Source of the DNA: a virus
Taxonomy: Duplodnaviria; Heunggongvirae; Uroviricota; Caudoviricetes
Direction: 5' to 3' (one strand)
Length of the DNA: 40,223 nucleotides
Virus record (IMG/VR): IMGVR_UViG_3300020201_000012
Location: 64,001 to 104,223 of that record
Translations under genes and position numbers: made by a program
The notes under the pieces: model-generated
What the model saw: the letters and a program-made list of their open reading frames with translations, nothing else
What the model was told of the DNA's origin: nothing
Database searches by the model: none
Shown here: positions 6,297 to 22,941 of the stretch, piece by piece
How the letters are laid out: the number at the start of each line of letters is the position of its first letter
Numbering within the stretch: position 1 is the stretch's first letter

Positions 6297-6598
6297 AATT
6301 TGGTGATAAGATATTCGCATATGGAAGAATGACCGATTACGATATGCACGAAGAAATAGGATTAGAAAATCCTTCTTATAATAGTGTTCTGGGATATATG
6401 CCCATAGGTGGCTTTTATATTATTCCCGAAAAGACAGATAGAATAGATGTGTACTTACCTGGATTCGTAATGGATTACATCCCCAGTTTAGCGTCACAAA
6501 CGCTATTTGCTAAAATGGAAATGGTGAACGTTACAAAATTATTATCCCTACAGGAGCCAACCCTGAAGGGAACTAATGTGTGGATGCCCATACCCTAG
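6278..6598 (+). CDS. hypothetical protein
   Basis: ORF coupled to the upstream gene (start may be ATG 6293); converges with the minus-strand block. Confidence 0.5.
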   Translation: MDATEMKFGDKIFAYGRMTDYDMHEEIGLENPSYNSVLGYMPIGGFYIIPEKTDRIDVYLPGFVMDYIPSLASQTLFAKMEMVNVTKLLSLQEPTLKGTNVWMPIP

Positions 6599-7055
6599 AA
6601 ACCAATAAGTTTCTAATTACTTCTAACTTATATACCCCTGTACCATTCGAGGCACAAGGCATACACCAATTTTCTTTACTAGAATTAGAGGTTGTTGAAG
6701 TGTTGCACCCAGAACAGGATACTGTATATTTATGTATCGCTGCTCCCGTACAGTAGCCGTCATACGGCATTGAAGGGCTTAGCCTGTTACAGAGTTCTAT
6801 AAACTCGCTACCGTGCCCCTTACCGTATCCTAGTAGTGCGTGGGTGGCTTCATGTATGGTCGTTCTATGAAACTCTTCTTCTGTGGCTATTGCTATATAC
6901 CTTTTACTATATACTATTTTTTTCTCATCATGTTTAGTCTTAGCTATAACAGAGTAACTGTTGTCGGTTTCAATACCCCAACCGCTTAAGCCTAGTAGGT
7001 CTAATATAGACCTAGAACGTTTTAGTGCTATTTCTATCTTATCTTTTTTATACAC
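6573..7055 (-). CDS. SprT-like zinc metalloprotease domain protein
   Basis: TTIHEATH...GHGSEF (HExxH plus HG..F) and C-terminal CxxC...CxxC. Confidence 0.7.
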   Translation of the reverse strand: MYKKDKIEIALKRSRSILDLLGLSGWGIETDNSYSVIAKTKHDEKKIVYSKRYIAIATEEEFHRTTIHEATHALLGYGKGHGSEFIELCNRLSPSMPYDGYCTGAAIHKYTVSCSGCNTSTTSNSSKENWCMPCASNGTGVYKLEVIRNLLVSRVWASTH

Positions 7056-9444: not shown

Positions 9445-9458
9445 ATTTTCTCCTTAGT

Positions 9459-9707
9459 TTATAGCCATTGTCTTACTTTATCCTGTGCTTCTGGGGATAA
9501 CTTGGCTAAAAGTTTCATTTGGTTAGGTAAATCAAACATACCAACCATAGTCCCCCAGTTATCCTTAAAGTTGGTTAGTTCGTTCAGCCTTTCGATATTC
9601 TCTGTTGCATAACCATATGTATCGTCATAAGTTCTCCAAATATCACACGCATTATCTCTTATCTCGTTGAATATTTTATCACTTGGTGCTTCGTAATAAC
9701 TATTCAT
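9459..9707 (-). CDS. hypothetical protein
   Basis: GGAG RBS, tight packing. Confidence 0.55.
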   Translation of the reverse strand: MNSYYEAPSDKIFNEIRDNACDIWRTYDDTYGYATENIERLNELTNFKDNWGTMVGMFDLPNQMKLLAKLSPEAQDKVRQWL

Positions 9708-10165: not shown

Positions 10166-10166
10166 A

Positions 10167-10310
10167 CTAAGCTCCTTTTTCTATATCACTTAAATATTTT
10201 CCTATTTTATCAACCCAGCCTATTGTATCGCCTAAAAATAGTACTTCTCCGTTTGGCATAACAACAACTTCTAGTTTTGCTAGCGTTATATCTTTTGGGT
10301 TTTCTTTCAT
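10167..10310 (-). CDS. small hypothetical protein (47 aa, not in track)
   Basis: AGGAG RBS directly after motif copy A; MKENPKDITLAKLEVVVMPNGEVLFLG... Confidence 0.55.
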   Translation of the reverse strand: MKENPKDITLAKLEVVVMPNGEVLFLGDTIGWVDKIGKYLSDIEKGA

Positions 10311-10320
10311 GTCTTCTCCT

Positions 10321-10360
10321 TTTAGGGTCTACCCCTAGTTTTGCGTTGAAAACGCCATTT
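10321..10360 (-). repeat. 39-40 bp dispersed motif, copy A
   Basis: AAATGGCGTTTTCAACGCAAAACTAGGGGTAGACCCTAAA. Confidence 0.85.
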
Positions 10361-10545
10361 TACTGTCCGTTATTAATAGTAGGAATTATAACCGCAATCA
10401 GCTCGTCAGTATCTTTTAACTTTGGCGTTAGCTTGGATTCTTGTATCTGTTGATCTTCTCGTTCTTCTTCCGCCCTCTTACTTTGCCTTTTTAGCCATGA
10501 CCTTATTACTAAAATTGATAATGTAATACACCAAAATGCGTCCAT
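10360..10545 (-). CDS. small membrane-anchored hypothetical protein
   Basis: N-terminal hydrophobic segment. Confidence 0.5.
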   Translation of the reverse strand: MDAFWCITLSILVIRSWLKRQSKRAEEEREDQQIQESKLTPKLKDTDELIAVIIPTINNGQ

Positions 10546-11127
10546 CTATTCCTCCTCTTTATATATAGTATCGTACCAGACCTCTGGTTCTACCGCTTTC
10601 TTTCCTGCCCTCTCTGCATACTCGTCATACTTTGCCACAACTTCATCTCCGTAGATATAACCTAAAGCCCAATGAGTACTCTCTCCATTATGTTCTGCAA
10701 ACCTTTCTAGTGTTATAGATTCTTCATTAAAGTTGCCTGAGAACTCAATCTCTTCGTTCTCACCCACACTCATCTCAAACGTGCCCTCACCCATCCAGTC
10801 TGTAGCCGTGTCACTATCTGTATAGTCTATGGTTATCATGCCCTTCTTTTTTATGAAGGCTTCAATGAACTTATTATAGGCTTTCTTTTCCTTATCGCCG
10901 TTCATCCACTCGCCTTTTAAGTAGCCATCAATATTGCTACCATAGTTCCAGCGGCCACCCGCACCGAACGTAAATCCTACATCTCCATTCTTGTCTGGCA
11001 CTACTCCATCGGTTGAATCAACCAATAGGTAATATGCACCCTCCTGTACTTTATTGATGAATTGTAGAAACTCTTTGCCTACTTTTCGTACTGTTATGTC
11101 TCCATAGCCGTCACTTATATTAGCCAT
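10546..11127 (-). CDS. acidic hypothetical phage protein
   Basis: 193-aa ORF with RBS. Confidence 0.65.
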   Translation of the reverse strand: MANISDGYGDITVRKVGKEFLQFINKVQEGAYYLLVDSTDGVVPDKNGDVGFTFGAGGRWNYGSNIDGYLKGEWMNGDKEKKAYNKFIEAFIKKKGMITIDYTDSDTATDWMGEGTFEMSVGENEEIEFSGNFNEESITLERFAEHNGESTHWALGYIYGDEVVAKYDEYAERAGKKAVEPEVWYDTIYKEEE

Positions 11128-11600
11128 TATTTTCTCTCCTCATAGACAGTTTTTGCCTCTTGTATCGTTATTATATTATTCTTAACTACAATCTTACCAG
11201 CGTCATCTCTATCTTCACCGTACCACTCTACTTCTCCATTAAGAATATACCCTTTTGGTTCTAGAATTTTCTCAATTAAATACTCCAACCATTCAACATA
11301 CGCATAGAACTTTTCACCACCGTCCCATTCTAGCCCCCAACCGTCTTCTGTAGGTATCCACTGTAACCATAGTCCGGGCTGAGTTTCAGGAGGAGTGTTG
11401 TAACCTATTATGTTACTTTCTTCTCCTTGACCGTCGAGACCAGAATCGTCAACGTAAAACTCTCCCTCTACACCATACTTCTCATCTACATTACGTCCCA
11501 TTCTACGAGTGCTTGCCAACTTCTCTAAGAATGTTTTGTCATCTGTTGTTAGTTGCTTATTAAACTTTAGTATTCCGTCAAAACTTGTGCTGTAACCCAT
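11127..11600 (-). CDS. hypothetical phage protein
   Basis: 157-aa ORF with AGGAG RBS; WDGGEKFY...W motif. Confidence 0.65.
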   Translation of the reverse strand: MGYSTSFDGILKFNKQLTTDDKTFLEKLASTRRMGRNVDEKYGVEGEFYVDDSGLDGQGEESNIIGYNTPPETQPGLWLQWIPTEDGWGLEWDGGEKFYAYVEWLEYLIEKILEPKGYILNGEVEWYGEDRDDAGKIVVKNNIITIQEAKTVYEERK

Positions 11601-11842
11601 TATTATCTCCTTTAGTTAATCGTTTAGCTTAAAATACTTAGTGGATGCGTTCGTCAGGAACAGCTCCCACATTGCTTCTGAACCAGTTTTTTCTATAGAT
11701 ATTCTTCTTGCTATTCTTTCTATGGCTTTTTCTTGTATCGTATCATCTAGTGAACTCATATATTCTCCTTTTAATTATTCTATTACTGGTAGTATATCAC
11801 TAACTTTATCTGTTGTAAACATTGCCCCCGCACTGTTGCCCC

Positions 11843-12334
11843 CTAGTTATGAACGTCTACAGGGACAACCCATAGTTTCTTTTCTTCAGAATTTTCTAGT
11901 ATCATTTTCATAGACCTATCATCATTTACACGATTACCCCATAGGTCACCATCCATTGCATACACACAAGCGACGTTAGAATTTCCGGCCGCAACAGCAA
12001 ACTGGTAGCGAGAGATATAATGCCCAGACTCTTGTCGGTCTACGCTATCAAACTTTTCATTGTATATATCTTCGTTACTGTATCCATTAAGCATATATCG
12101 TATAGCTTCTAACGCCTCATCAAACTCTTTTCTATTATTTTCCATACCTTCTTCGATAAGTTTCTTACCTTTCTGAGAGTTTATGCCGTAAGCCTTACTT
12201 GTACCCCAGCGACCGTCCATGTCGAACCAGTCAATTGTTCCATTTTCTACCATCTCTTGACAGTCATTCTCGGCTCGCTGTAACGCTTCTTCACTGTTAT
12301 CGGCTTCCACTAACATTCTTACTAAATAGTGCAT
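11843..12334 (-). CDS. hypothetical phage protein
   Basis: 163-aa ORF with AGGAG RBS. Confidence 0.65.
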   Translation of the reverse strand: MHYLVRMLVEADNSEEALQRAENDCQEMVENGTIDWFDMDGRWGTSKAYGINSQKGKKLIEEGMENNRKEFDEALEAIRYMLNGYSNEDIYNEKFDSVDRQESGHYISRYQFAVAAGNSNVACVYAMDGDLWGNRVNDDRSMKMILENSEEKKLWVVPVDVHN

Positions 12335-12346
12335 TATATTATCTCC

Positions 12347-12565
12347 TTAAAAGTTTTCGTGTTCAGTTAATGTATCGCACTTTTCTACTGCTACTTGCAT
12401 TAGTTTATCCCAGTATTGGTTGATAATAGATTGTGGTAGGCTTATACTATACAAAACTTCTTCTACCGCCATTCTTGGAATGTCAACAAGGTCGGTTTCT
12501 GATTCGTCATAGTAAAGCTCTACGCTATCTTCAACTTCCTCGATTAATGATTCTATTGTATTCAC
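12347..12565 (-). CDS. acidic hypothetical protein
   Basis: GTG start after AGGAGG, directly downstream of motif copy B. Confidence 0.55.
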   Translation of the reverse strand: MNTIESLIEEVEDSVELYYDESETDLVDIPRMAVEEVLYSISLPQSIINQYWDKLMQVAVEKCDTLTEHENF

Positions 12566-12578
12566 CGTCTTCCTCCTT

Positions 12579-12618
12579 TTTGGGGTCAACCCACAGTTAA
12601 GCGTCGAAAACGCTATTT
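12579..12618 (-). repeat. 39-40 bp dispersed motif, copy B
   Basis: AAATAGCGTTTTCGACGCTTAACTGTGGGTTGACCCCAAA. Confidence 0.85.
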
Positions 12619-12826
12619 ATTCTGATTTATTTTCCTTGTACCAATCTACACTTAATCTTAAATCTTCCCACATAGCTTCGTGTGAACCGTTGTGGTTATT
12701 CTCGAATCTTGCTAAAATTTCCCTTGCTTGCTCGTCTGTTAAGGAGTTCTGTATGCTCTTAACGTCATCTATATGCCAGCTAAATGCTATGGCGTTTCCT
12801 TTGTTATACGTTTCTTTTGTGAACAT
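12617..12826 (-). CDS. hypothetical phage protein
   Basis: W.IDDV....LTDEQAREIL motif of small phage proteins. Confidence 0.6.
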   Translation of the reverse strand: MFTKETYNKGNAIAFSWHIDDVKSIQNSLTDEQAREILARFENNHNGSHEAMWEDLRLSVDWYKENKSE

Positions 12827-13200
12827 TATTTCTCCTCTACTCGTGTTACTTTATATTTCTTATTCTCTGCTTTTTCGCCATCAAACCCTAACCATGCCCC
12901 GCCCTCCCAGTTGCTGAAAGTAAATTCTCGTAGTATATACTCAAACACATCTTCAATGCTCCTGGATGGCGTGTCTGTATAGTTGTAATAGAACTTAACA
13001 GGCACGTTATACATATCGACATATTGTGCAATGTCTAATGGTGTGGTGAATTGTTCTCCTTTGCCAAAAAAGTATTTTCTATACTCTGAGCAAAAATTAG
13101 GATACTTTTCAATAAACTGGTCTGTAAAGTGATACCTTTTTTGCATTCTTCCGAACTTTAAATGTATATAGTTTGCTTTATCTCCGTAGTAGTCAATCAT
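12826..13200 (-). CDS. hypothetical protein
   Basis: RBS, coupled ORF. Confidence 0.55.
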   Translation of the reverse strand: MIDYYGDKANYIHLKFGRMQKRYHFTDQFIEKYPNFCSEYRKYFFGKGEQFTTPLDIAQYVDMYNVPVKFYYNYTDTPSRSIEDVFEYILREFTFSNWEGGAWLGFDGEKAENKKYKVTRVEEK

Positions 13201-13512
13201 CGTTCTTCTCCTCTACATTAAAGTTTTCTTCTATATGATTAGCTATTTCCCCTAAGTCAAAACACGGATCGTTTGCTTCGCTTTCTCCGAAGTTTTCTAG
13301 TATAAAGTTATAGATACTACGCTCTAAGGGGCTAACTCTCTCCTCTAGTTGATCTAATTGATCTCCTGTCATGGCGTTTTCTCTCTCTTCTGGTAACTCA
13401 CTCTCAGGAATTTACAGGAAAGCATGCTCTATGTCACAGATACTCATCATATCTATGCACTCTTCATCCAAGTCTTTTCTTAGCGTCACTATTCTACTCA
13501 AACTTAAAATAC

Positions 13513-13683
13513 TCATTCTGTCTCCTCTTCTATGGTTACTTTGGCAAAGTCATCTTGGTTTAATACTATATCCCATCTATCGTACATATTATTTGTAAGT
13601 CTTATTGCTTCATCCATTGTGTTGGCTTCTATCTCAACAACCCTGTTTAATATTTCTGTTATGCTTACTTTGAACTTACTCAT
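13513..13683 (-). CDS. DpnD/PcfM-like small protein
   Basis: FKVSITEILNRVVEIEA...EAI...Y...IVLNQDDF pattern. Confidence 0.55.
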   Translation of the reverse strand: MSKFKVSITEILNRVVEIEANTMDEAIRLTNNMYDRWDIVLNQDDFAKVTIEEETE

Positions 13684-14010
13684 TATCTTCCCCCTCATTA
13701 TCTAACTGCTCAAATGAATTATAGCCACTCACAGCGTACAGCACGTCCTCTAACGTATCTATATTGTAGCCGTTGATACTTGTTACTACCTTTAATGTTT
13801 CTTCTGATACATTGTGTTCTTCAACCAACTTATCCCATGCTGCTTCTACGCTCATATTGTCTCCTTAAAACATTCGTTTAGTTTAGTTTCAAACTTAAAT
13901 AACTCTTCCAGCCCGTCTAGAATTGAATTACTGTCACAGTTGTTCGTCTTGCGATCTTTTAGCCATTTTGCTAACAACTCTAAGTCAATTTTCATTATGC
14001 CTCCTTAAGT

Positions 14011-14049
14011 TTTGGGGTCTAGCCCCAGTTTACGTTCAAAACGCTATTT
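14011..14049 (-). repeat. 39-40 bp dispersed motif, copy C
   Basis: AAATAGCGTTTTGAACGTAAACTGGGGCTAGACCCCAAA. Confidence 0.85.
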
Positions 14050-14070
14050 TCCTAATTGTTTCCATTACTA

Positions 14071-14292
14071 TTAGTTACCTTCAAACATTCTAGGTTGGAC
14101 TCCTTCAAATTCCAAGTCTTTAGTAAACATATATCTAACAGAAACACCAGCCCAATATCCTTGCTGCTTAATTGTGTTTACTATGGTATTATAATCTTGA
14201 TCTATACTACCGGAAGATATAAACATATCATCTTCATCTGCTAATAGTTCGCAGAAATTAAGGACAAAATCTGTTTTCATTTTACTCGCCAT
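14071..14292 (-). CDS. hypothetical protein
   Basis: Coupled ORF. Confidence 0.5.
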   Translation of the reverse strand: MASKMKTDFVLNFCELLADEDDMFISSGSIDQDYNTIVNTIKQQGYWAGVSVRYMFTKDLEFEGVQPRMFEGN

Positions 14293-14482
14293 AACTAATT
14301 AACCTCCCAAATGTTTCTTCTGCTAATTTTAATTGCTTATAAGCACTTGCCAATACAGGATCTGCCTGTTCTAACCTATCCATAGAAAAATCACAGTACC
14401 GTTCCATCTCACCTTTCTCGTTATAGAAGTATTTGCAGTTCCATAAGAACTCTTCTCTTTCTTCCTCGCTCATCTTAACCAT
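14282..14482 (-). CDS. hypothetical protein
   Basis: Coupled ORF. Confidence 0.5.
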   Translation of the reverse strand: MVKMSEEEREEFLWNCKYFYNEKGEMERYCDFSMDRLEQADPVLASAYKQLKLAEETFGRLISYGE

Positions 14483-14661
14483 CCTTCCATTGGTTTGTCA
14501 AACATATCTTCTCTCGATATACCTTCGTTTCCGTCATATATCTCAGACCATTCGGAAGCGTAGCTTGCCTCTGCTTCTTCTATAGCTTCATCCAAAGAGT
14601 CGAAACTTCCGAGCTCTATTGAATAAAAACTGTCTTTTAGTATTATTTTCCAATTACTCAT
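14470..14661 (-). CDS. hypothetical protein
   Basis: GGAGG RBS; LGSFDSLDEAIEEA motif. Confidence 0.5.
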   Translation of the reverse strand: MSNWKIILKDSFYSIELGSFDSLDEAIEEAEASYASEWSEIYDGNEGISREDMFDKPMEGWLR

Positions 14662-14987
14662 AGTACCTCCACGCACTTAAATGTTGAATAGACATCAAAC
14701 GTTTTTCCCTGCGTAACAGGGCAAATTCCTACAAACGCTGCAATATCTTTAGCATCCTCATATACCATTCGCAAGTGGAATAGTATGTTCTCTCGTGCTT
14801 CTCTGTAAGCTTCTTGTTCTGCCATTCCATCTTCGCTCATATTTTCTTCTGCCTCACTATCTTCCCACATAGATAGAGCTTCTAGCTTACCGTCTACCAC
14901 AGCATAGAATCCATCATATGCCGAGTGAAACTCCCCGCTACTCATTTCATTAACGGAATATAGTTTGCCTACATTAAACTTTTTCAT
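14658..14987 (-). CDS. hypothetical protein
   Basis: Coupled ORF. Confidence 0.55.
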   Translation of the reverse strand: MKKFNVGKLYSVNEMSSGEFHSAYDGFYAVVDGKLEALSMWEDSEAEENMSEDGMAEQEAYREARENILFHLRMVYEDAKDIAAFVGICPVTQGKTFDVYSTFKCVEVL

Positions 14988-15751
14988 TTAGCCTCCAATT
15001 TAATTATTGCACTCTTCATATCCAGAACCGCTTCAAGAGCAAAGGACGGCATATTATATTCTCCGCCGTATTCAGTATCGATTGAATTTATCGCTTTGTT
15101 TATATCATTAGCAACATCCTTTTTAATGTTTTCTCTTATTTGTTCTTCAACTTTTTCGTGTGCCGCAATGATACTGTCCCAGTTGCACATCTCAAAGTCG
15201 TTAGTTAGATACCACTCTTCCATATGCCAACCCTCGGGTCCTGTTTCATCGCTTACCTTATCTAACCAGAACTCAATCAGGACTTCGTACTGGCACTCGT
15301 CTAGCGTCTCTCGGGTCCACTCTTCGTTCTGGTAGTCATTACTACAGAAACTATGGAACCCATCATATGAAGTAAACCTATCTTTTATTAGTTGTGGGTA
15401 GTCCTCGTGTGCCTCAACCTCTTTTCTAATTTTATTTATCTCTTCTCGAGGAATCAAACAGAACAACCTATCTGTTGAGAAGTTATATTCTTTAGGGGAA
15501 GTCATTTCATCAAACGTCAGGGTTAAGTCGTATTTATCTCCTAGGGCTGCAATAAATGCTTGACAATACTCCTTTCTTATTGCGTTGTGGTCAATATCTG
15601 CTTGCCATATTGCATCACTGTCAGGTTCCTTCTCACTATCTGTTTCATAGTCATAGTTAAAGCCGTTCTCTAAAGCTCTATCAATCTCTCCGTCGTGAAA
15701 TGACTCATAGAATCCTGAAAATGGTATCTGTATCTTTACTAAATCACTCAT
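14984..15751 (-). CDS. acidic hypothetical phage protein
   Basis: 255-aa ORF; IPFSGFYES and SPKEYNFSTDRLF motifs. Confidence 0.7.
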   Translation of the reverse strand: MSDLVKIQIPFSGFYESFHDGEIDRALENGFNYDYETDSEKEPDSDAIWQADIDHNAIRKEYCQAFIAALGDKYDLTLTFDEMTSPKEYNFSTDRLFCLIPREEINKIRKEVEAHEDYPQLIKDRFTSYDGFHSFCSNDYQNEEWTRETLDECQYEVLIEFWLDKVSDETGPEGWHMEEWYLTNDFEMCNWDSIIAAHEKVEEQIRENIKKDVANDINKAINSIDTEYGGEYNMPSFALEAVLDMKSAIIKLEAK

Positions 15752-15755
15752 TATC

Positions 15756-16046
15756 TTATACCCCTATCCATTTATTATGTTGCTTTTCAGTCTGCTCTAG
15801 CAATAAGTTACCTACTGTATCCCATTCTTGCAAAACTAGCATATGTGGATTACGGTGGTTGCTACTATCAAATCTTGCTTCTTCGTGTCCGAACACTGTA
15901 CCTTTCATACCTTCAGGGTAGTAATCTCGGGGTATAATCTCAATCATACCTCCAATAGTGTCTCTGAGTTGGTCATACTCAAACTTCTTTCCGCGGTGTA
16001 TCTCTTGAGTTGTGCCGTCCTGATTAAGTAGTGTATAGATGTGCAT
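15756..16046 (-). CDS. DUF3846-like protein
   Basis: YDQLRDTIGGMIEII...GHEEAR...VGNLLL pattern. Confidence 0.5.
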   Translation of the reverse strand: MHIYTLLNQDGTTQEIHRGKKFEYDQLRDTIGGMIEIIPRDYYPEGMKGTVFGHEEARFDSSNHRNPHMLVLQEWDTVGNLLLEQTEKQHNKWIGV

Positions 16047-16555
16047 TATTTCCCCTCTAGGCTTTTTAGCCATTTATTTACTAAACTTGCTAACTCAGCT
16101 TCCGCATCATCAAACTGAAAAGCTAACGAAGGCTCAATATCCCCATGAGTTATACCACGGTTTTCTAGCATCTCTCCATAAACAGTCTGTAGTTTATCTT
16201 TAAACTCTAGAATAGTCTCTTTGTCCTTGTAAGTATTCACAACTTTGTGGCTCCAACACCAAGAGCCTGAACCTATACAGTAGACGTGTTCTCCTGCTTG
16301 TTCGCTGAGGTAACCGGACCATCTATCTAACTCATCTTCTCGATTTGAGTCTTGACTGAGTACTTCCTTATAGCTGTCTGTCTTTTTGTCGTACTTTATT
16401 ACTTCCGGTATTTTACTTGCCAGTTTATCTGCATTTTCTTTATTCATTAGAACGTATGACCAACCGTTCCAGTAGTCATCTTCTCTAGCCCAACCGTCAA
16501 TAGTGACCACACCGTCCATACCTTCAATAAAAAGTTTTGCTTTCTTATATTTCAT
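16046..16555 (-). CDS. hypothetical phage protein
   Basis: 169-aa ORF with RBS; YWNGW motif. Confidence 0.6.
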   Translation of the reverse strand: MKYKKAKLFIEGMDGVVTIDGWAREDDYWNGWSYVLMNKENADKLASKIPEVIKYDKKTDSYKEVLSQDSNREDELDRWSGYLSEQAGEHVYCIGSGSWCWSHKVVNTYKDKETILEFKDKLQTVYGEMLENRGITHGDIEPSLAFQFDDAEAELASLVNKWLKSLEGK

Positions 16556-16568
16556 TACTAATTCTCCT

Positions 16569-16772
16569 TTAAATCATTTTTTCCATATAAAACTCTTCGG
16601 GTTTACCGTTAACTGTTACACCATCTCTCCAAGTAAGACCGATTGCGTAGCCGTTACTCTCACACACTATAAGGTATTGACCTATGGAATCTTTTATTAC
16701 CTTGTAGTTACTGTTATGATGATAGACTTTGTGTCTATCTTTTATCGCTTGTTTAATCTCTGTTAGGTTCAC
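16569..16772 (-). CDS. hypothetical phage protein
   Basis: GGAG RBS after motif copy D. Confidence 0.6.
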   Translation of the reverse strand: MNLTEIKQAIKDRHKVYHHNSNYKVIKDSIGQYLIVCESNGYAIGLTWRDGVTVNGKPEEFYMEKMI

Positions 16773-16802
16773 TTGTATTCTCCTTTAGATTAGTAAACTA
16801 TA

Positions 16803-16841
16803 TTTGGGGTCCAGCGGCAGTTAACGTCGAAAACGCTATTT
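16803..16841 (-). repeat. 39-40 bp dispersed motif, copy D
   Basis: AAATAGCGTTTTCGACGTTAACTGCCGCTGGACCCCAAA; contains the stop codon of the upstream gene. Confidence 0.85.
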
Positions 16842-17717
16842 ACCGTTATGGACACTACCTTCGTTCCAGTAACTCTGAACGAATCCGTAACACGCCTGAA
16901 CACCATAACCGCTGGACCTCTCGTTGTCGTTCAGGAACTCTATGTCTTTTCTTTTTATAGTTACATCTCCTGTGAGTTGTGCCTCTGTTATCCCCGCACC
17001 ATTACTTCTATCGTACATCACAAGGTTTGTTCCTTTCTTTATCACTAGGTTTTTGCTGTCGCTGGACACAACATCTATAATATCTGCTAAGTCCCCGAAA
17101 CAAAAGTGTAGAACACCGTTATATAAGGAGCACATGTTATCATATAACTCATCTACACTTACCTTAGCTTCCCTTGCTGGCATATCAGGAAACCAACCTT
17201 TAAGCACGCCAGGTCCTGATGTTCTTGAGCCGCCGCGGAGCTTATCAAGAAAATCTTTAGGATTAATACCTAAAACTTTTAAAGACTCTCTCACGTCTGA
17301 ATAGTTGACCGGTCCTGAATAAGCCCAGTCATAGAAGTTCCAGTCAGCGTTCCACATTACCCCTGATATGTTTACTGTCGTGTTGGATATAAGCTGGTTC
17401 CAGCCGTGGTCGTCTAGATAATAGGATGGGTAAAAACCGTCTTCGGCGAGCCAACCATCTATATCTTCCTGAGTTGCACCTGTCTCATCTCTACATTTCT
17501 CCCAGTAATAATCAAACTCTCCATCGTAACCACTATTACACATTGCATATTCCTCAATATCACAACGAACTTGATCTGCTTTTCCCTCTAAGATTTCATT
17601 TACCTGTTCACTGGACAACTCATCTCTATAATCTATATATATTTTCTCTGAATTATTCTCCACATAGCTACATATCTTATCTTCGATTGTCTTTACTTTG
17701 ACGTGGACTACACTCAT
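16836..17717 (-). CDS. hypothetical phage protein
   Basis: 293-aa acidic ORF. Confidence 0.7.
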   Translation of the reverse strand: MSVVHVKVKTIEDKICSYVENNSEKIYIDYRDELSSEQVNEILEGKADQVRCDIEEYAMCNSGYDGEFDYYWEKCRDETGATQEDIDGWLAEDGFYPSYYLDDHGWNQLISNTTVNISGVMWNADWNFYDWAYSGPVNYSDVRESLKVLGINPKDFLDKLRGGSRTSGPGVLKGWFPDMPAREAKVSVDELYDNMCSLYNGVLHFCFGDLADIIDVVSSDSKNLVIKKGTNLVMYDRSNGAGITEAQLTGDVTIKRKDIEFLNDNERSSGYGVQACYGFVQSYWNEGSVHNGK

Positions 17718-17908
17718 AGCTTGCCCTCCTTAATTAGTTTTATTCCTAATGCTTTCTGAATAGCTTCAAAATACCTCATAGCTTCCTTTAGTTGTAGGTA
17801 GTCTGATGCTTCATAGTTGTATCCGCCATACCACTGCTGATTAGCTGTTCTTAGGATTTCTAGATACTCCACACACGTGTACTCATGTAGTTTAATCTTC
17901 ACTTTCAA
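17714..17908 (-). CDS. hypothetical protein
   Basis: Coupled ORF. Confidence 0.5.
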   Translation of the reverse strand: MKVKIKLHEYTCVEYLEILRTANQQWYGGYNYEASDYLQLKEAMRYFEAIQKALGIKLIKEGKL

Positions 17909-18104
17909 AATCCTCCATCGATATTACTTCCATACCGTAATTGGAATCGCGGTATATATACTCTTTACCCTCGAACGAACCCGTTCCTATCTGTTCTAGG
18001 TCCGTGGCTAGTTTTAAGAGTTTGGCTTTTACTGTTCCTGTTTCTTCGTCTGCTATAGCATAAATATCTGCTAAGGAACTATAGCTTAATGAATAGTTAG
18101 TCAT
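17892..18104 (-). CDS. hypothetical protein
   Basis: GAGG RBS. Confidence 0.5.
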   Translation of the reverse strand: MTNYSLSYSSLADIYAIADEETGTVKAKLLKLATDLEQIGTGSFEGKEYIYRDSNYGMEVISMEDFESED

Positions 18105-18218
18105 TTTCCTCTACCGTTTCTATTATTATGAACTTTGGTAAACTTTCTACGCCTAGCAATGATTCGAACGAGTCTCTAAGCATCCACCCAAAATCACTTG
18201 TGTCTAATACTCTTCTCA

Positions 18219-18680
18219 TTACTTCTCCGTGTGCCAGTTAAGTTCTGCTACATCGTATAGTCTATCCCATACGCCATCGTAGAAGTTCCAACCAGCACCG
18301 TTAACACCAATAACATACTCTCCATCTAGTTCATAGACGTAAACGGAAGTTCTATTACCATCTTTATCTAGGACACAGAGTTCTTCGCTCATTTCGTCAT
18401 CTATGTATTGCTCATAAGTTTCGTAGATGTTTCCTTCTAATTCTCTCTCTATCTTGTTTCTTATTCTGACGTCCTGTATTTCACCAACCGTAGCCACTAG
18501 CTTGCGAGAGTTTTCATAGAACTTAGTTCCGTCAAACTCATTACAAATCCACATAGTACCCCACATAGGGAGGTTTGGTACATATCCGTTAAAAGATTTA
18601 AATAGTCGTCCTGCCCAATCTTGGGGGATGCTATTCATATCTTTTTCTACCCATTTTTTGATTGCATCTTTCTTATTCAT
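18219..18680 (-). CDS. hypothetical phage protein
   Basis: LPMWGTMW and GVNGAGWNFYDGVW motifs; AGGAG RBS. Confidence 0.65.
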   Translation of the reverse strand: MNKKDAIKKWVEKDMNSIPQDWAGRLFKSFNGYVPNLPMWGTMWICNEFDGTKFYENSRKLVATVGEIQDVRIRNKIERELEGNIYETYEQYIDDEMSEELCVLDKDGNRTSVYVYELDGEYVIGVNGAGWNFYDGVWDRLYDVAELNWHTEK

Positions 18681-18939
18681 TTTATCTCCTTAATTAACTT
18701 AAATATTTTATACCCTGAGTAGGCGTTCTTTTCTGCTTCTTCCAGAGTCGAAAAGTAATCTACTTCTATATCTCCGTGTGATGAACAACAGGGTATATAA
18801 ATCACCATATATTCATTCTGTTCCATAATCATTACCTACATCTTTCCATACATAGTCATAGCTAGGACAGTCAGTGGCATCATAACTTTCATCTACTAAC
18901 TCTCCACAATTTACACATAACTTCATGCAGTCTCCTTTT

Positions 18940-18978
18940 TTTAGGGTCTACTGGCAGTTTACGTTCGGAACGCGATTT
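18940..18978 (-). repeat. 39-40 bp dispersed motif, copy E
   Basis: AAATCGCGTTCCGAACGTAAACTGCCAGTAGACCCTAAA; overlaps the 3' end of ORF 18948-19166. Confidence 0.85.
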
Positions 18979-19166
18979 CTCTCTTGTTCTATAATAGGAA
19001 GTAGCCTGTCTACCTCATCGGCATATAGGACAACTAACTTAGAGTCAGCTACACCTTTCCTGTAGTAGTGTTCATAAATAAACACGTTACCGCTTGGCAT
19101 TATTTCCGCGTGTCTAGATAAACCGTTGGTAGTATCTCCTACTTTATGTAGTAAAACATTTTTCAC
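18948..19166 (-). CDS. hypothetical protein
   Basis: GGAGG RBS; C-terminus encoded by motif copy E. Confidence 0.5.
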   Translation of the reverse strand: MKNVLLHKVGDTTNGLSRHAEIMPSGNVFIYEHYYRKGVADSKLVVLYADEVDRLLPIIEQERNRVPNVNCQ

Positions 19167-19217
19167 TATTAACCTCCGTCTGTTTAATTTCTTTTACTGT
19201 CGGGTTACATCCTCTAA

Positions 19218-19526
19218 CTATACCTCTACTACCTCTGATATTTCCGATAATAGCATCGCGCATACTGCTTGCTTGTGCTCATGTCTAGGTGCAAAGGATG
19301 TAGCTAATGCTTTGTAATAGCGTAGTATTCTATTCCTATACTCAAGATCAATACTAGCCTTAAAATTTAAGGAAAGCCCACTAAAAAACTGCTTATTAAA
19401 CATTTTATTGTATGGATTACTATCTTTATCAAAGCCACCGTCCTCGGCTATTTTTAACATATTAGGATCTACGTTTAGGTTTGAGAAGTTTATATCTCTA
19501 TCTCTTAATTCGGGAACATTAATCAT
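19218..19526 (-). CDS. hypothetical phage protein
   Basis: SFAPRHEHKQAVCAMLL motif; AGGAG RBS. Confidence 0.6.
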   Translation of the reverse strand: MINVPELRDRDINFSNLNVDPNMLKIAEDGGFDKDSNPYNKMFNKQFFSGLSLNFKASIDLEYRNRILRYYKALATSFAPRHEHKQAVCAMLLSEISEVVEV

Positions 19527-19834
19527 CGGTTGTCTCCTGTTAGGGTTTTATTTGTCAACCTAGTTCGCACAATAACAACTTTGGAAAAGCCAAGGAATCG
19601 AACGGAAATATTTATTGTTCTCTTGTCTGGCATGCCTTTTCCGTGCTTTATATCAAAATACCTCATAGCTCATAGCCCTCTATTAAGCATTGGATAGCTA
19701 TTAGTTTTGCTAATTTATTGTCTATTTTGCTGTCAGTCATATCATCTCCCGTGAGCGTTAAGTTTATTTATAGTAGTAGGATGCTGCTCACGCTACATCC
19801 TACTACTTACACCTCTGAGAACTCAATCTCAGAT

Positions 19835-19873
19835 TTTGGGGTCCATCGGCAGTTTACGCTCCGAGCGTCATTT
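19835..19873 (-). repeat. 39-40 bp dispersed motif, copy F
   Basis: AAATGACGCTCGGAGCGTAAACTGCCGATGGACCCCAAA. Confidence 0.85.
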
Positions 19874-20045
19874 CGCTTTACCGGAAACTGTAATTTGTTT
19901 ATGAAAGACCCTAATATCCTATGAATTTCATAGGATATATTGGATATTCTAAGCTTTTGTTGGAAAACTTGGGGGCATTACAGGAGTCGAACCCATACAT
20001 AGTGGAACCGCCACTGCCCATCAGTCGGACAGCTACTCATAATAG

Positions 20046-20414
20046 CTATCCATTTAAGAATTGTCTGTAGATCTCATTGGTGTACATTGTCCACGCTTCG
20101 TAACCTACACCCCACTTTTCACGATCTATCCATACTCGATATGCTACTTTTACATTAGTAGCAAGATCATTTGGATCTTCGCCTTCTCTGTAGTGGAGGC
20201 AACCTACTTGCAAGACTCCATACGAGCCCACACAGACTCCGTGGTCTTCACCCATACTTAAGTTATGCACTAAAGGATCACAGCCTCGATTTTCTGCTTG
20301 TGCTATGGCTTGCATAGTATTCACGTCCCAACCTTGGTATTTTGCAATCTCTTGTGCTACTAACTCACATGGACTGAGCTGATCTTTAACTTCGGGAACA
20401 GCAACCCGCTCTAT
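20046..20414 (-). CDS. lytic transglycosylase (SLT/lysozyme-like) domain, probably reached by -1 frameshift
   Basis: CELVAQEIAKYQGWDVNTMQAIAQAEN...SYGVLQV...NVKVAYRVW...AWTMY; the frame is open about 30 codons upstream of the track's GTG. Confidence 0.65.
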   Translation of the reverse strand: MERVAVPEVKDQLSPCELVAQEIAKYQGWDVNTMQAIAQAENRGCDPLVHNLSMGEDHGVCVGSYGVLQVGCLHYREGEDPNDLATNVKVAYRVWIDREKWGVGYEAWTMYTNEIYRQFLNG

Positions 20415-20605
20415 TTTTTTACTTCAGGAACCTCAGTGGGTGTAACTTGGGAGTTAAGAACTACCTTGTTTTCTACTGTTACTGTTGCATTCCGTTGGTA
20501 GTTTACACCACCTAGAAACGCTACGATTCCTGTTGCTAACGTTACTAATAGGACAGTCTTAACCTGTTCTACTACGTTAGTTGTTATTGGTTTATTGAAA
20601 GACAT
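20411..20605 (-). CDS. single-TM membrane anchor protein ending at an A_AAA_AAA slippery site
   Basis: AAGGAG RBS; hydrophobic VLLVTLATGIVAFLGG; ends GTA AAA AAA TAG. Confidence 0.65.
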   Translation of the reverse strand: MSFNKPITTNVVEQVKTVLLVTLATGIVAFLGGVNYQRNATVTVENKVVLNSQVTPTEVPEVKK

Positions 20606-20646
20606 TGTGTCTCCTTTTTATTTAATTTATATTTTGTCTGAAGGAT

Positions 20647-20685
20647 TTTCGGGTCCAGCGGCAGTTTACGCGCTAAAAGCTATTT
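20647..20685 (-). repeat. 39-40 bp dispersed motif, copy G
   Basis: AAATAGCTTTTAGCGCGTAAACTGCCGCTGGACCCGAAA. Confidence 0.8.
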
Positions 20686-20802
20686 TTCTTTTTAGGAAAA
20701 AACTAGCTAGGACATAAACTTGCTGGAAAACCAAAAAAATCGGAACAAACAAACAATCCGCCATTATTGACGGATTGTATAATTTGTTCTCTCCTATAGT
20801 TT

Positions 20803-21153
20803 TTATATGTTTTCTATAACCTCCAAACTAGCCAACAGCATTTCTTCCTCGTCAGCGTCTATATACTCTCCGAGGTCATATTTTTCTATGATCGCATTAT
20901 AGTGCAAGGACTGTTTACTTTTAGCCATACGGATATGGTGAAACACCCACGGAAGCGTTTTGCAAACTGAGATCATCGAACCAACGGGAAGCAATACCAT
21001 ACCGCTACTGCTAAACTTTACAAGTTTCCCGTTTGTTGTGAACTTCTTGGTACACGTTTTTAATTTAATTAAACCGCGTCCGTTTTCTGTATCTATTACG
21101 GAATACATATTATCCCCGAACTTCACAAGTTTGGAGGCTACCGCCGTCCTCAT
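20803..21153 (-). CDS. hypothetical protein
   Basis: 116-aa ORF; start uncertain. Confidence 0.5.
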   Translation of the reverse strand: MRTAVASKLVKFGDNMYSVIDTENGRGLIKLKTCTKKFTTNGKLVKFSSSGMVLLPVGSMISVCKTLPWVFHHIRMAKSKQSLHYNAIIEKYDLGEYIDADEEEMLLASLEVIENI

Positions 21154-21376
21154 AGACTACTACAGTCTTGCAAGGTATAGGCGTTCCGAACATTGCCCAA
21201 TCTATTAGGAAAGGTATAGCCAAACCGATTAGGATACCGAAAAAAATTGGGATCCATCGACAGTTTACGTTCTGGACGCGATTTCCCATTATTTTCCCCC
21301 GAATTTTTGCTCGATCTGGATTACTTATTTCCACACTTCTTTTTCCGTTTGTCAATTTTATATTTTCCGTACGCAT
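21110..21376 (-). CDS. membrane protein containing motif copy H
   Basis: GAAAGGA RBS; TM segment IPIFFGILIGLAIPFLI. Confidence 0.5.
   Translation of the reverse strand: MRTENIKLTNGKRSVEISNPDRAKIRGKIMGNRVQNVNCRWIPIFFGILIGLAIPFLIDWAMFGTPIPCKTVVVYEDGGSLQTCEVRG
21246..21284 (-). repeat. 39-40 bp dispersed motif, copy H (intragenic)
   Basis: AAATCGCGTCCAGAACGTAAACTGTCGATGGATCCCAAT. Confidence 0.75.
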
Positions 21377-21419
21377 AGCATTTTCCTTTCAATTTGTCAA
21401 GTATTTTATGATATAATTT

Positions 21420-21449
21420 TAGGGAAAAGTCAATGTTGACTTTTCCCTA
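21420..21449. other. 14-bp perfect inverted repeat (terminator or operator)
   Basis: TAGGGAAAAGTCAA-TG-TTGACTTTTCCCTA. Confidence 0.7.
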
Positions 21450-21458
21450 TAACTAGTG

Positions 21459-21800: not shown

Positions 21801-22029
21801 TTTATACTCGTTTCTGTTACATCATTATTAATTGATTAAGTGCATACAGTCGATGTTTTAACTGTATGCATACATTGTAGCATTAGCATTAGCATTTAGT
21901 CAATACGCTTATGGTGTAATAAACGCAACCGTTATGCACAAGTACCAGAACATATAACCAGGGGATTACAAGTCTTGACAGATCTAAAAATAATTGTATA
22001 ATAGACCTGCTGCGGTCTACCCGTAAAAA

Positions 22030-22058
22030 AAAATAACCACTATTGTAGTGGTTATTTT
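22030..22058 (-). terminator. intrinsic terminator after ORF 22075-22329
   Basis: 13-bp inverted repeat followed on the minus strand by a T run. Confidence 0.75.
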
Positions 22059-22074
22059 GCAAGCGTTTGAACGT

Positions 22075-22329: not shown

Positions 22330-22941
22330 TGTGTACCCTTCTCTGTCTTCTTGAATATTGCCAATACCTCTAATAGAGTATAGCCGTCTGCTACTATTGC
22401 ATATTCAAACCAGAGGTCTAGTGCCTTGCGGTCGTTTACGGTTAGCGTCATTTTGTACCCTTCTTTTAATTTATACTAACAGTATGACTTATAAACATAA
22501 ACATTACAAGCACGAACGGTGTAGAATTTACAGCCATATATATACTGATCTGTCAACATGCACAGCTTGCAAGATCTGTCAAAAGATTTTCTAATAGGTA
22601 TGGTATAATATGTTTTTAGAATTAACAGGGGTCGTATAACATATACTTGACAAAAAATCTACTTGACACTTGACAAAATCTCTGAAACCGTTCATTATAT
22701 TTTCCAAACCTCAGGGGCGCGACCCCCCACAAATTTTTTTTTCAAATATTCGATAAATGACGTTAACCTATCTAAACCGGTTAGTGCTAATTTTGGGATC
22801 CACCGCTAGTTTAATGCACTGGTTTACACTCACTGGTTAATTGTAAGCAAAGCTCTACAACACTTATAATTGTTAGAGTGTGTTCTTTGTACTATACTCT
22901 ATACAGTAAGGGCACAAAGGCACCCGCGGAAACAACGGTAA

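What the first reader, a model, noticed from the sequence alone, without database searches (positions are those of the whole stretch)
10321..21284. Eight co-oriented copies of a 39-40 bp motif punctuate the accessory gene block
Seen at 10321, 12579, 14011, 16803, 18940, 19835, 20647 and 21246, all on the minus strand. Consensus is about AAAT-NRCGYT-N3-RACG-(N)-WAACTG-N4-TRGAYCCYAAA. Three conserved blocks are separated by variable N3-N5 stretches, and there is a short covarying palindrome (GCGTT-TTC-AACGC, ACGCT-CGG-AGCGT, CGTT-CCG-AACG). Most copies sit on or just after an upstream stop codon and just before the next RBS; two are read through in the same frame (NRVPNVNCQ, NRVQNVNCRW). It has no sigma70 -35/-10 and no U tract. 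Inference: a phage-specific promoter/operator, an mRNA processing site, or a recombination site that lets gene cassettes be gained and lost. I found no complete copy outside this block.
Basis: partly seen in the sequence, partly recalled or inferred. Interest (0 to 1): 0.8.

Follow-up and report, generated by a model that had tools for sequence, protein, structure and literature searches.

The report
Phage gene-cassette boundary repeat
An uncultured 104-kb phage and its relatives mark gene junctions in a fast-changing block of small genes with a conserved, one-directional 25-40 base signal, probably a phage-specific transcription signal that also acts as a crossover point for gene swapping.

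Summary
They stand far above chance: PWM 28-38 bits against at most 15 in shuffles.

I found two more elements:
- a complete core copy at 6484-6508(-), after the last gene of the block;
- a half copy at 22791-22813(-).

There are no others in the 104-kb genome.

A 24-26 nt core (AAAT-R-GCGTT-N5-CG-(C)-TAAAC-W-G) recurs, always in the sense orientation, in the equivalent block of about six related phage lineages. The 16 nt after the core differ by lineage.

Two positions are fixed across lineages:
- a head copy 34-67 nt after a strong intrinsic terminator that closes a short sigma70-driven unit;
- a terminal copy after the last gene.

The hairpin shows no covariation in 33 copies. I found no Rfam family, no phage RNA polymerase or sigma, and no bacterial genome carrying multiple copies.

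Gene order between relatives repeatedly breaks at the motif. Copies are about 92% alike where the neighbouring genes are 64-70% alike.

My best reading (about 0.4) is a phage-specific promoter-type signal that also serves as a recombination handle, analogous to T4-type PeSLs but without their sigma70 promoter. The main rivals are stoperator-like roadblock sites and an mRNA-level site. No RNA data exist, so the mechanism is inferred.

The parts
10321..10360 (-). Motif copy c1. The stop of the upstream 61-aa ORF abuts the motif start; the RBS and ATG of a 47-aa ORF lie 25 nt after the core.
   Evidence: 28.9 bits
12579..12618 (-). Motif copy c2 (25-nt core variant). The upstream stop overlaps the first bases; the RBS and GTG follow.
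   Evidence: 35.7 bits
14011..14050 (-). Motif copy c3. It is 92% identical over 37 nt to a non-orthologous copy in contig L156.
   Evidence: (37.4 bits)
16803..16842 (-). Motif copy c4. It supplies the TAG stop of the conserved 293-aa gene. A copy sits at the same junction in L156, G005 and G008.
18940..18979 (-). Motif copy c5. It is read through by the last 10 codons of ORF 18948-19166.
19835..19874 (-). Motif copy c6. It is the only copy with compensatory changes in the short palindrome. It lies in a 500-nt gap with no ORF directly after it.
20647..20686 (-). Motif copy c7, the 'head' copy. It lies 67 nt after the intrinsic terminator at 20753-20778. The RBS and ATG of the 64-aa gene lie 56 nt after the core.
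21246..21285 (-). Motif copy c8. It is embedded in the 5' coding part of a small membrane-type ORF (ATG at 21289) and lies upstream of the terminator.
6484..6508 (-). Terminal core copy (25 nt, without this genome's 3' half). It lies 64 nt after the stop of the last gene of the block and antisense inside the + gene 6278-6598. The same place is occupied in G002, G005 and G008, and by the last copy in G001.
   Evidence: (35.1 bits)
22791..22813 (-). Half copy (3' half only), in the divergent control region upstream of the leftward sigma70-type promoters.
   Evidence: (31.6 bits; not in the training set)
20753..20778 (-). Intrinsic terminator (11-bp stem plus T-rich tail) that closes the short promoter-proximal unit just before head copy c7.
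   Evidence: equivalent terminators before the head copies of G001 and G005
22030..22058 (-). Strong intrinsic terminator (13-bp stem, T9) after the first two leftward genes.
21874..21903 (-). Sigma70-type promoter-like site (TTGACT-18-TACAAT with TG) ahead of ORFs 21459-21800 and 20803-21153.
   Evidence: consensus match only
20803..21153 (-). 116-aa ORF directly before the terminator. It is syntenic with a 100-105-aa protein family in G001, G005 and G008. It is a candidate trans-acting factor by inference only.
   Evidence: G001 vs G005, E 8e-8; this ORF against the family profile, E 0.085: not significant
6573..7055 (-). SprT-like metalloprotease gene, the last gene of the leftward block. 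It is conserved in all relatives.

Best explanation
The motif is a family-specific, orientation-dependent transcription signal. It punctuates a hypervariable array of small, probably early-expressed accessory genes.

Proposed mechanism:
1. Host RNA polymerase starts at ordinary sigma70-type promoters at the head of the leftward block.
2. It transcribes a short unit of small proteins and stops at a strong intrinsic terminator.
3. The long ORFan array behind the terminator is then transcribed from the motif copies, which act as delayed-early/middle-type promoters. These are recognised only with a phage-made specificity factor, possibly the small proteins of the promoter-proximal unit.
4. The start point would lie inside or at the 3' edge of the 24-26 nt core, in the A/T-rich TAAAC followed by a G-rich run.

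The same 25-40 nt recurs in direct orientation at many gene junctions and carries stop codons in two or three frames. It therefore also works as a portable cassette boundary where homologous exchange swaps genes, as PeSLs do in T4-type phages.

Shown: the repeat, its conservation, its strandedness, its two anchor positions, the terminator in front of the head copy, and gene-order breaks at copies.

Inferred: promoter activity, the position of the start point, the factor, and the recombination mechanism.
For: (1) Non-random and restricted. There are nine core copies and one half copy, all on the coding strand of one 16-kb block, and none elsewhere in 104 kb.

(2) Conserved in relatives. G001 has 6 copies, G002 has 2 plus one at its contig end, G005 has 6, G008 has 6 and L156 has 5. 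All are in the sense orientation of the equivalent block between terminase and portal.

(3) Terminator before the head copy. In three lineages a strong intrinsic terminator sits 34-67 nt upstream of the head copy: window 20753-20778 then c7; G001 62928-62957 then 62862; G005 51141-51167 then 51107. Behind it, 14 kb of genes in the window show no enrichment of sigma70-type sites (52 found, 56.9 expected) and no further terminator. Something must restart transcription there.

(4) Recognition by sequence, not by fold. The three blocks AAAT, GCGTT and CG-TAAAC-W-G are nearly invariant, while the putative stems show no covariation.

(5) A phage-encoded or cis-acting reader. No bacterial genome among about 186,000 species holds more than one match.

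(6) Cassette-boundary anatomy like PeSLs (PMC2839356). The upstream ORF's stop lies inside the motif in most copies (TAG at core positions 4-6, TAA in CGTAAAC), and the RBS and start codon follow 8-56 nt after the core.

(7) Exchange at the motif:
- G000 and G002 share the gene before c1 but not the gene after it.
- G005 and G008 differ by a 716-nt and a 423-nt insertion whose left edges sit at the 3' edge of motif copies 3 and 4.
- L156 copy 2803 and G002 copy 2183 share the downstream gene but not the upstream one.
- c3/c4 and L156 copies 4662/7015 share the upstream gene but not the downstream one.

(8) Copies are kept or homogenised beyond their surroundings. c3 is 92% identical to a non-orthologous L156 copy, where the genes are 64-70% identical. 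The 16-nt 3' half is 58% identical within lineages and 36% between them.
Against: No RNA data exist, so no transcription start has been seen.

No sigma-70 region 2, no T7-type RNA polymerase and no large unassigned conserved ORF was found. The T7-family search rang in no control genome, so it is weak evidence.

The motif fits no promoter class that I know. TAAACT could pass for a -10, but several copies in G001, G005 and G008 read TAAACA, which lacks the T at -7 that is critical by textbook knowledge.

In G005 49830, G005 46363 and G008 7085 the Shine-Dalgarno sequence overlaps or directly follows the core. A start 6-8 nt downstream of the core would therefore strip the RBS. A promoter reading requires a start inside the core.

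The terminal copy has no gene to drive. It would make antisense RNA to the conserved + gene 6278-6598 that contains it, and beyond that to the terminase operon.

The two small candidate factors gave low-confidence models and no informative fold match. The window's 116-aa ORF is not significantly similar to the family in the relatives.

On recombination: inserted segments are not flanked by the motif on both sides, a third G005/G008 indel and several G000/L156 replacements have motif-free edges, and none of the strain-level joints or loose ends in four other samples lies at a copy.
Confidence: 0.4

Rival explanations
1. Stoperator-like roadblock or operator sites. A phage DNA-binding protein binds the asymmetric site in short intergenic spaces and halts elongating RNA polymerase. 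This silences the accessory array late in infection or in a carrier state, and the terminal copy protects the convergent terminase operon.
For: The site is asymmetric and strictly co-oriented with transcription. It lies in short intergenic spaces that overlap stop codons, which is how stoperators of cluster A mycobacteriophages are described (PMC9283540). Recognition is by sequence, not fold. The conserved terminal copy after the last gene is natural for a stop signal. Overlap with the RBS is no problem for this reading.
Against: The copies are confined to one block rather than spread over the genome and its promoters. The core is 24-26 nt, about twice a stoperator. No repressor candidate was identified. 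This reading leaves the 14-kb array behind the terminator without a promoter. The half copy at 22791-22813 lacks the conserved core.
Confidence: 0.2
2. An mRNA-level signal. The core is read in the polycistronic transcript by a sequence-specific RNA-binding protein or endonuclease. That protein cuts the message into cistrons, trims its 3' end at the terminal copy, or controls translation of the next gene.
For: The motif is always on the sense strand, between a stop codon and the next Shine-Dalgarno sequence, sometimes overlapping it. The terminal copy 64-79 nt after the last stop codon would define a 3' end. The phage carries an unusual set of RNA-handling genes: a Ro60-like protein, polynucleotide kinase-phosphatase, RNA ligase and a tRNA nucleotidyltransferase.
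Against: Neither candidate hairpin shows covariation in 33 copies. There is no Rfam match, even at E up to 5. The distance to the start codon varies from 8 to 139 nt, and two copies have no ORF behind them. The head copy lies behind a strong terminator, so little transcript would reach it without a separate restart. The half copy lies upstream of the leftward promoters.
Confidence: 0.2
3. A dedicated recombination site of an integron-like cassette platform. A phage recombinase acts on the copies, with the head and terminal copies as the fixed ends of the array. There is no regulatory role.
For: Two anchor copies bracket the hypervariable array in every lineage. Gene order breaks at the copies on either side. 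The 3' half is homogenised within genomes. Stop codons occur in several frames.
Against: No tyrosine or serine recombinase appeared among the proteins scanned; this was not an exhaustive scan. The motif has no attC-like long imperfect inverted repeat. Inserts are not bounded by two copies, and many indels end at plain gene starts. No joints at copies were seen in four other samples. By general knowledge, 25-40 bp of identity is enough for general phage recombination, so no special enzyme is needed.
Confidence: 0.1
4. Weak intrinsic terminators for antisense (+ strand) transcription. The reverse complement reads as one or two short hairpins followed by T-rich tails.
For: The consensus scan lists the reverse complement of several copies as terminator-like, at 10322, 10343, 12600, 14012 and 19856 in the window and at 6344 and 8651 of L101.
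Against: The stems are only 3-5 bp, and the fourth pair is broken in half of the copies. The strict conservation of AAAT and TAAAC-W-G is not explained. The G-tract/C-tract hairpin is present in only 3 of 9 copies here. The terminal copy lies inside the coding part of a + strand gene, where a + strand terminator would truncate its mRNA.
Confidence: 0.04

Closest known systems
PeSLs (promoter-early stem-loops) of T4-type myoviruses (Arbiol et al. 2010, PMC2839356; Comeau et al. 2014, PMC4122927)
   Same: A repeated composite motif concentrated in the hyperplastic, ORFan-rich regions. It begins at the stop codon of the upstream gene and ends at the Shine-Dalgarno sequence and start codon of the next gene. 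Insertions and replacements between related phages have edges at the motif. A terminator function sits beside a restart function.
   Different: PeSLs are built on a consensus sigma70 -35/-10 promoter plus a stable stem-loop, often polyG/polyC, that terminates transcription. This motif has no sigma70 promoter and no conserved stable stem. Its core is a 24-26 nt sequence of unknown reader. It occurs in an unrelated group of tape-measure-bearing tailed phages of 72-104 kb. The number of copies is 5-10, not about 50.
Stoperators of cluster A mycobacteriophages (L5 gp71-type repressors; PMC9283540)
   Same: An asymmetric site in short intergenic spaces, strictly oriented with the direction of transcription, in many copies per genome, read by sequence.
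   Different: Stoperators are 13-mers spread over the whole genome, including the early promoters, and are bound by a known immunity repressor of a temperate phage. Here the site is about twice as long and confined to one block. No repressor or integrase was seen.
Phage-specific promoter classes: T4 middle promoters (MotA box plus -10) and the roughly 20-bp promoters of T7-type single-subunit polymerases (from my own knowledge, not tested against data here)
   Same: A long, contiguous, asymmetric, highly conserved motif in front of genes. It lies downstream of early terminators. An A/T-rich stretch is followed by a G-rich stretch, as at T7-type start sites. Dependence on a phage-made factor is inferred.
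   Different: The spacing does not fit a MotA box plus -10. The T at -7 is not kept. No single-subunit polymerase or sigma gene was found. One conserved copy has no gene downstream.
Integron attC sites
   Same: Co-oriented sites at the junctions of promoterless gene cassettes, with a fixed first site and a last site after the last cassette.
   Different: There is no long imperfect inverted repeat, no integron integrase was seen, and the sites lie in front of only some of the genes.

Membership tests
PeSL (T4-type promoter-early stem-loop) | Repeated intergenic motif concentrated in hypervariable ORFan regions, running from the upstream stop codon to the downstream Shine-Dalgarno sequence and start codon | tested here: met
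   All copies lie in one block where few of the 41 called minus-strand ORFs have a homologue in any relative. The stops lie inside the motif, and the RBS and start follow 8-56 nt after the core.
PeSL (T4-type promoter-early stem-loop) | Consensus sigma70 -35 and -10 boxes inside the motif | tested here: not met
   The scan finds a -35/-10 pair in only one copy (16824-16797), by a chance downstream TATAGT. No conserved hexamer pair lies at 16-18 bp spacing.
PeSL (T4-type promoter-early stem-loop) | Stable stem-loop that terminates or attenuates transcription | tested here: not met
   Only 3 invariant pairs. The fourth pair is broken in 17 of 33 copies and there is no covariation. A G-tract/C-tract hairpin occurs in 3 of 9 copies of this genome. 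Separate true terminators lie 34-67 nt upstream of the head copies.
PeSL (T4-type promoter-early stem-loop) | Indel and replacement edges between related phages at the motif; mini-circles formed between copies | tested here: inconclusive
   Several edges fall at copies, but others fall at motif-free gene starts, and no insert is flanked by two copies. Circles cannot be tested with the tools available here. No joints at copies were seen in four samples.
Stoperator system (cluster A mycobacteriophages) | Asymmetric site in short intergenic spaces, oriented with transcription | tested here: met
   All 33 aligned copies from six phages, the half copy and the truncated G002 copy are on the sense strand of their block.
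Stoperator system (cluster A mycobacteriophages) | Sites spread over the genome, including the early promoters; 13-bp site | tested here: not met
   The copies are confined to 16 kb of 104 kb. The core is 24-26 nt. None overlaps a sigma70-type promoter.
Stoperator system (cluster A mycobacteriophages) | Cognate immunity repressor that binds the site | not tested
No repressor candidate was identified.
Promoter of a phage single-subunit (T7-type) RNA polymerase | The phage encodes the polymerase | tested here: not met
   PF00940 has no match in six frames, though the controls did not ring, so sensitivity is unproven. All ORFs of 700 aa or more are accounted for (portal, tape measure, ribonucleotide reductase, a repeat protein) or lie in the structural module: the 739-aa one has only a marginal capsid hit at E 0.2.
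Promoter of a phage single-subunit (T7-type) RNA polymerase | Transcripts start at a fixed base at the 3' edge of the motif | not testable with these tools
   No RNA run holds this phage.
Integron attC / cassette array | Long imperfect inverted repeat (R''-L''...L'-R') and an adjacent integron integrase | tested here: not met
   The motif is asymmetric apart from GCG/CGC. No recombinase family appeared among the proteins scanned; the scan was not exhaustive.
Any curated RNA family (Rfam 15) | Match to a covariance model | tested here: not met
   No match at the copies, even at E up to 5.

The most novel reading that the evidence does not exclude
The 24-26 nt core is the promoter (or loading site) of an unrecognised transcription-specificity system. 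In this reading, one or two roughly 100-aa proteins of no known family, made from the short sigma70-driven unit just upstream, redirect host RNA polymerase to a promoter unlike any sigma-type site. The array they switch on is a self-shuffling, integron-like platform of accessory (possibly anti-defence) cassettes bounded by fixed head and terminal copies.
Probability: 0.15. Interest if true: 0.8.

Novelty: new variant of a known kind. Interest (0 to 1): 0.5.

Why it matters
Repeated regulatory motifs that double as crossover points are the best-supported explanation for how T4-type phages shuffle their accessory genes. This finding shows an anatomically similar system in an unrelated, uncultured phage group from microbial mats, built on a signal that is not a host sigma70 promoter.

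If the signal is a promoter, it points to an undescribed way of redirecting host RNA polymerase.

If it is a roadblock or an RNA site, it extends stoperator-like or RegA-like global control to new phages.

In practice the core sequence is a ready marker. It finds the hypervariable cassette array of this phage family in metagenomes and delimits its ORFan genes, which are plausible host-takeover or anti-defence candidates.

Tried and rejected
- **GenBank phages:** megablast of the block and tblastn of the portal gave no match.
- **IMG/VR, this genome's full 3' half:** the exact pattern gave only single, chance-level hits. The 3' half is therefore lineage-specific.
- **Rfam:** nothing at the copies at E up to 5.
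- **Covariation:** hairpin 1 (GCGTT/AACGC) and an alternative hairpin with TAAACTG in the loop show no covariation. An earlier permutation hint for the second hairpin (p 0.003) rested on non-independent copies, and I do not rely on it.
- **Polymerase and sigma:** searches for sigma-70 region 2 and for the T7-type polymerase in the genome found nothing.
- **Other promoter classes:** sigma54, ECF, FliA, T4-late and extended -10 readings of the motif were checked by eye and rejected for wrong spacing or non-conserved key bases.
- **Bacterial genomes:** the core pattern gave 94 single hits and no genome with several. There is no host regulon and no prophage copy.
- **RNA data:** no RNA holder is listed for this phage.
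- **Contigs of four other mat samples laid on 6000-23500:** no joint or loose end lies at a copy. A few contig ends (14038 twice, 16810, 19831, 20646) touch copies, but the listing is partial and coverage is low.
- **The conserved 293-aa protein next to copy c4:** no PDB, Pfam, PHROG or Atlas lead.
- **The two small promoter-proximal proteins:** no Pfam family. AlphaFold models have mean pLDDT 64 and 55, and Foldseek found no match with E below 0.09.
- **The window's 116-aa ORF against its positional counterparts in the relatives:** BLASTP found nothing and hhalign gave E 0.085.
- **Readings set aside without a formal test:** ops/RfaH-type pause site, nut/boxA, Chi, pac site, T-arm mimic, CRISPR-like repeat and frameshift signal. 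The reasons were copy number, spacing or non-conserved key positions.

Full report
**Setting.** The window is bases 64001-104223 of a 104,223-bp IMG/VR phage record rated complete. The record closes on itself: the 1258-codon ORF that runs off the window's end stops 11 codons into the start of the record. The genome encodes a terminase, portal, tape measure, class II ribonucleotide reductase, DnaB, RNA ligase, polynucleotide kinase-phosphatase, a Ro60-like protein and many tRNAs. It has no relative in GenBank phages. Its DNA is held by several microbial-mat metagenomes. Between the terminase operon (+ strand, ending at 6598) and the portal (28298) lie two diverging blocks of small genes. The finding concerns the leftward block, 22451 down to 6573.

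- The eight copies are at the stated coordinates, all on the minus strand.
- A loose pattern for the 3' half gives 16 window matches against 3.8 +/- 1.9 expected.
- A weight matrix of the 3' half separates nine sites (28.7-37.9 bits) from everything else in the genome (at most 10.0 bits; shuffle maximum 14.6). The ninth site, 22791-22813, was not in the training set and has only the 3' half.
- A matrix of the 5' core finds the eight copies plus a further complete core at 6484-6508, at 27.9-37.4 bits. No other site in this genome reached the 12-bit listing threshold.
- The genome therefore holds ten elements, all on one strand and all within 16 kb.
- Most upstream ORFs end inside the motif, at the TAG of AAATAG or the TAA of CGTAAAC. 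A Shine-Dalgarno sequence and start codon follow 8-56 nt after the core.

**Relatives.**
- A terminase search gave two syntenic phages: G001 (88 kb, complete) and G002 (a 40-kb fragment).
- They lack the window's 3' half but carry the 5' core on the sense strand of the equivalent block.
- Scanning IMG/VR and JGI metagenomes with the core found more carriers: G005/G006, G007-G009 and contig L156.
- An HMM of the core lists 6 copies in G001, 2 in G002, 6 in G005, 6 in G008 and 5 in L156. G002's contig also begins inside a further copy.
- The 33-copy alignment gives the consensus AAAT-R-GCGTT-N5-CG-(C)-TAAAC-W-G, with AAAT, GCGTT, CG and TAAAC invariant or nearly so.
- The next 16 nt depend on lineage. 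The window and L156 share a G-run, GAC and C-run followed by AAAA. G001 has an A-run then a T-run about 8-11 nt on. G005/G008 have ACATAAATT. This 3' half is 58% identical within lineages and 36% between them, while the core is about 80% in both comparisons.
- No bacterial genome of about 186,000 species has more than one match to the core. The reader of the signal is thus the phage itself, or the signal acts in cis.

**Not a structured RNA as far as can be seen.** The pairing comes from invariant GCG and CGC. The fourth pair is broken in 17 of 33 copies, and there is a single compensatory cell. An alternative hairpin that would present TAAACTG in its loop fares no better. An earlier permutation hint rested on orthologous copies. 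Predicted folds differ from copy to copy. Rfam has nothing. The element is recognised by sequence.

**Architecture.** The head of the leftward block has sigma70-type promoter-like sites (about 22700-22520 and 21903-21874) and two strong intrinsic terminators (22058-22030 and 20778-20753). No further terminator lies on that strand for 14 kb. There are also no more sigma70-like sites than in shuffled sequence (52 found, 56.9 expected).
- Copy c7 lies 67 nt behind the second terminator.
- The same order recurs in G001: promoter-proximal small ORFs, a strong terminator, then the first motif copy. There the terminator is at 62957-62928 and a tandem pair of copies follows from 62862.
- It also recurs in G005: terminator at 51167-51141, copy at 51107.
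- At the other end, every lineage has a last copy 64 or 79 nt after the stop of the last ORF. That ORF is the SprT-like gene in G000, G002, G005 and G008. The copy lies antisense within a conserved + strand gene whose protein is only 40-63% identical between phages.
- Between these two anchors, the number and places of the copies vary with gene content.

**Gene content and breakpoints.** The block is hypervariable. Few of its ORFs have a homologue in any relative. Breaks of gene order often coincide with the motif.
- G000 and G002 share the gene before c1, with 87% identity over the last 61 nt up to the motif, but not the gene after it.
- G005 and G008 (about 90% identical) differ by a 716-nt and a 423-nt insertion. 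The left edge of each lies at the 3' edge of a copy. The two inserts share a 155-nt piece, so a small gene sits behind different copies in the two phages.
- L156 copy 2803 and G002 copy 2183 have the same downstream gene but different upstream genes.
- c3 and c4 share their upstream genes with L156 copies 4662 and 7015, but not what follows.
- Between c6 and c5, and their L156 counterparts, I detected no homology in the intervening sequence.
- Copy c3 is 92% identical to a non-orthologous L156 copy, where genes are 64-70% identical.

Against a dedicated recombination site:
- A third G005/G008 indel runs from one start codon to the next with no motif.
- Several G000/L156 replacements have motif-free edges.
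- No insert is bounded by two copies.
- The strain-level joints and loose ends seen in four other mat samples (for example 7667/7998, 18228 and 22031/22447) are not at copies.

**Mechanism.** I rank a transcription-initiation signal first, at about 0.4.

For it:
- It is the only reading that explains how the long array behind a strong, conserved terminator gets transcribed.
- It fits a long, asymmetric, sequence-read and strictly oriented motif.
- It fits an A/T-rich TAAAC followed by a G-rich run.

Weaknesses:
- No polymerase or sigma gene was found.
- The motif does not fit any promoter class I know.
- The Shine-Dalgarno sequence overlaps or abuts the core in G005 49830, G005 46363 and G008 7085. 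This forces the start point into the core.
- The terminal copy has nothing to drive.

The small proteins of the promoter-proximal unit are the natural candidates for a specificity factor. The roughly 100-aa protein next to the terminator is homologous between G001 and G005 (E 8e-8). The window's 116-aa counterpart is only positionally equivalent. Models of these proteins were poor and matched nothing.

A stoperator-like roadblock (about 0.2) explains the orientation, the intergenic placement and the terminal copy (PMC9283540). It does not explain the restriction to one block or the missing promoter.

An mRNA-level site (about 0.2) explains the placement between stop codon and RBS and the terminal copy. 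It has no structural support and requires read-through of the terminator.

A dedicated integron-like recombination site (about 0.1) and antisense terminators (about 0.04) are less likely.

In every reading, the repeated 25-40 nt of near identity in direct orientation are a substrate for homologous exchange. The breakpoint pattern suggests that such exchange happens.

**Comparison with what is known.** The closest described system is the PeSL of T4-type phages (PMC2839356; PMC4122927). It has the same anatomy from stop codon to start codon, the same association with ORFan-rich hyperplastic regions and the same link to indels. The two features that define a PeSL are absent here: a consensus sigma70 promoter and a terminating stem-loop. 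The finding is therefore an analogue, not a member. Stoperators share the orientation rule but not the size, distribution or known repressor. I class it as a new variant of a known kind. It is of moderate interest as it stands, and higher if the reader of the signal turns out to be a new way of redirecting RNA polymerase.

Noticed in passing
window 36449-40223 and genome start: The giant ORF that runs off the window's end is completed 11 codons into the start of the record (1269 aa in all). The 'linear' record therefore closes on itself, as a circle or a circularly permuted genome.
   Followed up: partly
window 21975-22002 (+) and 23854-23881 (+): Two perfect 12/12 sigma70 consensus promoters (TTGACA-16-TATAAT) on the + strand. 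The first points rightward from inside the head of the leftward block, antisense to its first genes.
   Followed up: no
window 22540-22700 (-): The leftward control region holds three TGTCAAG repeats and two TTGACAGATC repeats. These may be stacked promoters or operator sites.
   Followed up: no
L045:3720-4370 (G001 63423-64070): Four to six copies of ATATAGCGT(G) lie in the divergent control region of the relative G001. They look like iterons or operators.
   Followed up: no
window 20803-21153 and 21459-21800; L045:3290-3607 and 3826-4110; L101:11276-11578 and 11580-11885: There is a two-gene promoter-proximal unit of roughly 100-aa proteins of no known family, closed by a strong terminator. 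In G001, G005 and G008 the first protein ends in a shared ML-NG-..-E-IAKLGL motif. The terminators of G000 and G001 look related (both begin ACAATCC).
   Followed up: partly
window 18229-18847 and 22031-22447: In four other microbial-mat samples, contigs of this phage lack or replace these two segments: two small genes after copy c5, and the first leftward genes. This is strain-level cassette variation, and its edges are not at motif copies.
   Followed up: partly
L047:1-40 (G002 contig start): The 40-kb relative's contig begins inside a motif copy. The repeat appears to break assemblies.
   Followed up: no
genome 51157-53550, 57207-58169 and window 144-1721: The phage carries an RNA-repair kit: RNA ligase, polynucleotide kinase-phosphatase, a tRNA nucleotidyltransferase and a Ro60-like protein.
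   Followed up: no
genome 59423-59737 (-): A 104-aa HNH endonuclease is 77% identical in all relatives. This is far above the family average, as expected of a packaging-associated HNH.
   Followed up: no
window 9707-10165 (-): A free-standing HNH endonuclease gene lies in the accessory block. It is shared only with G002.
   Followed up: no
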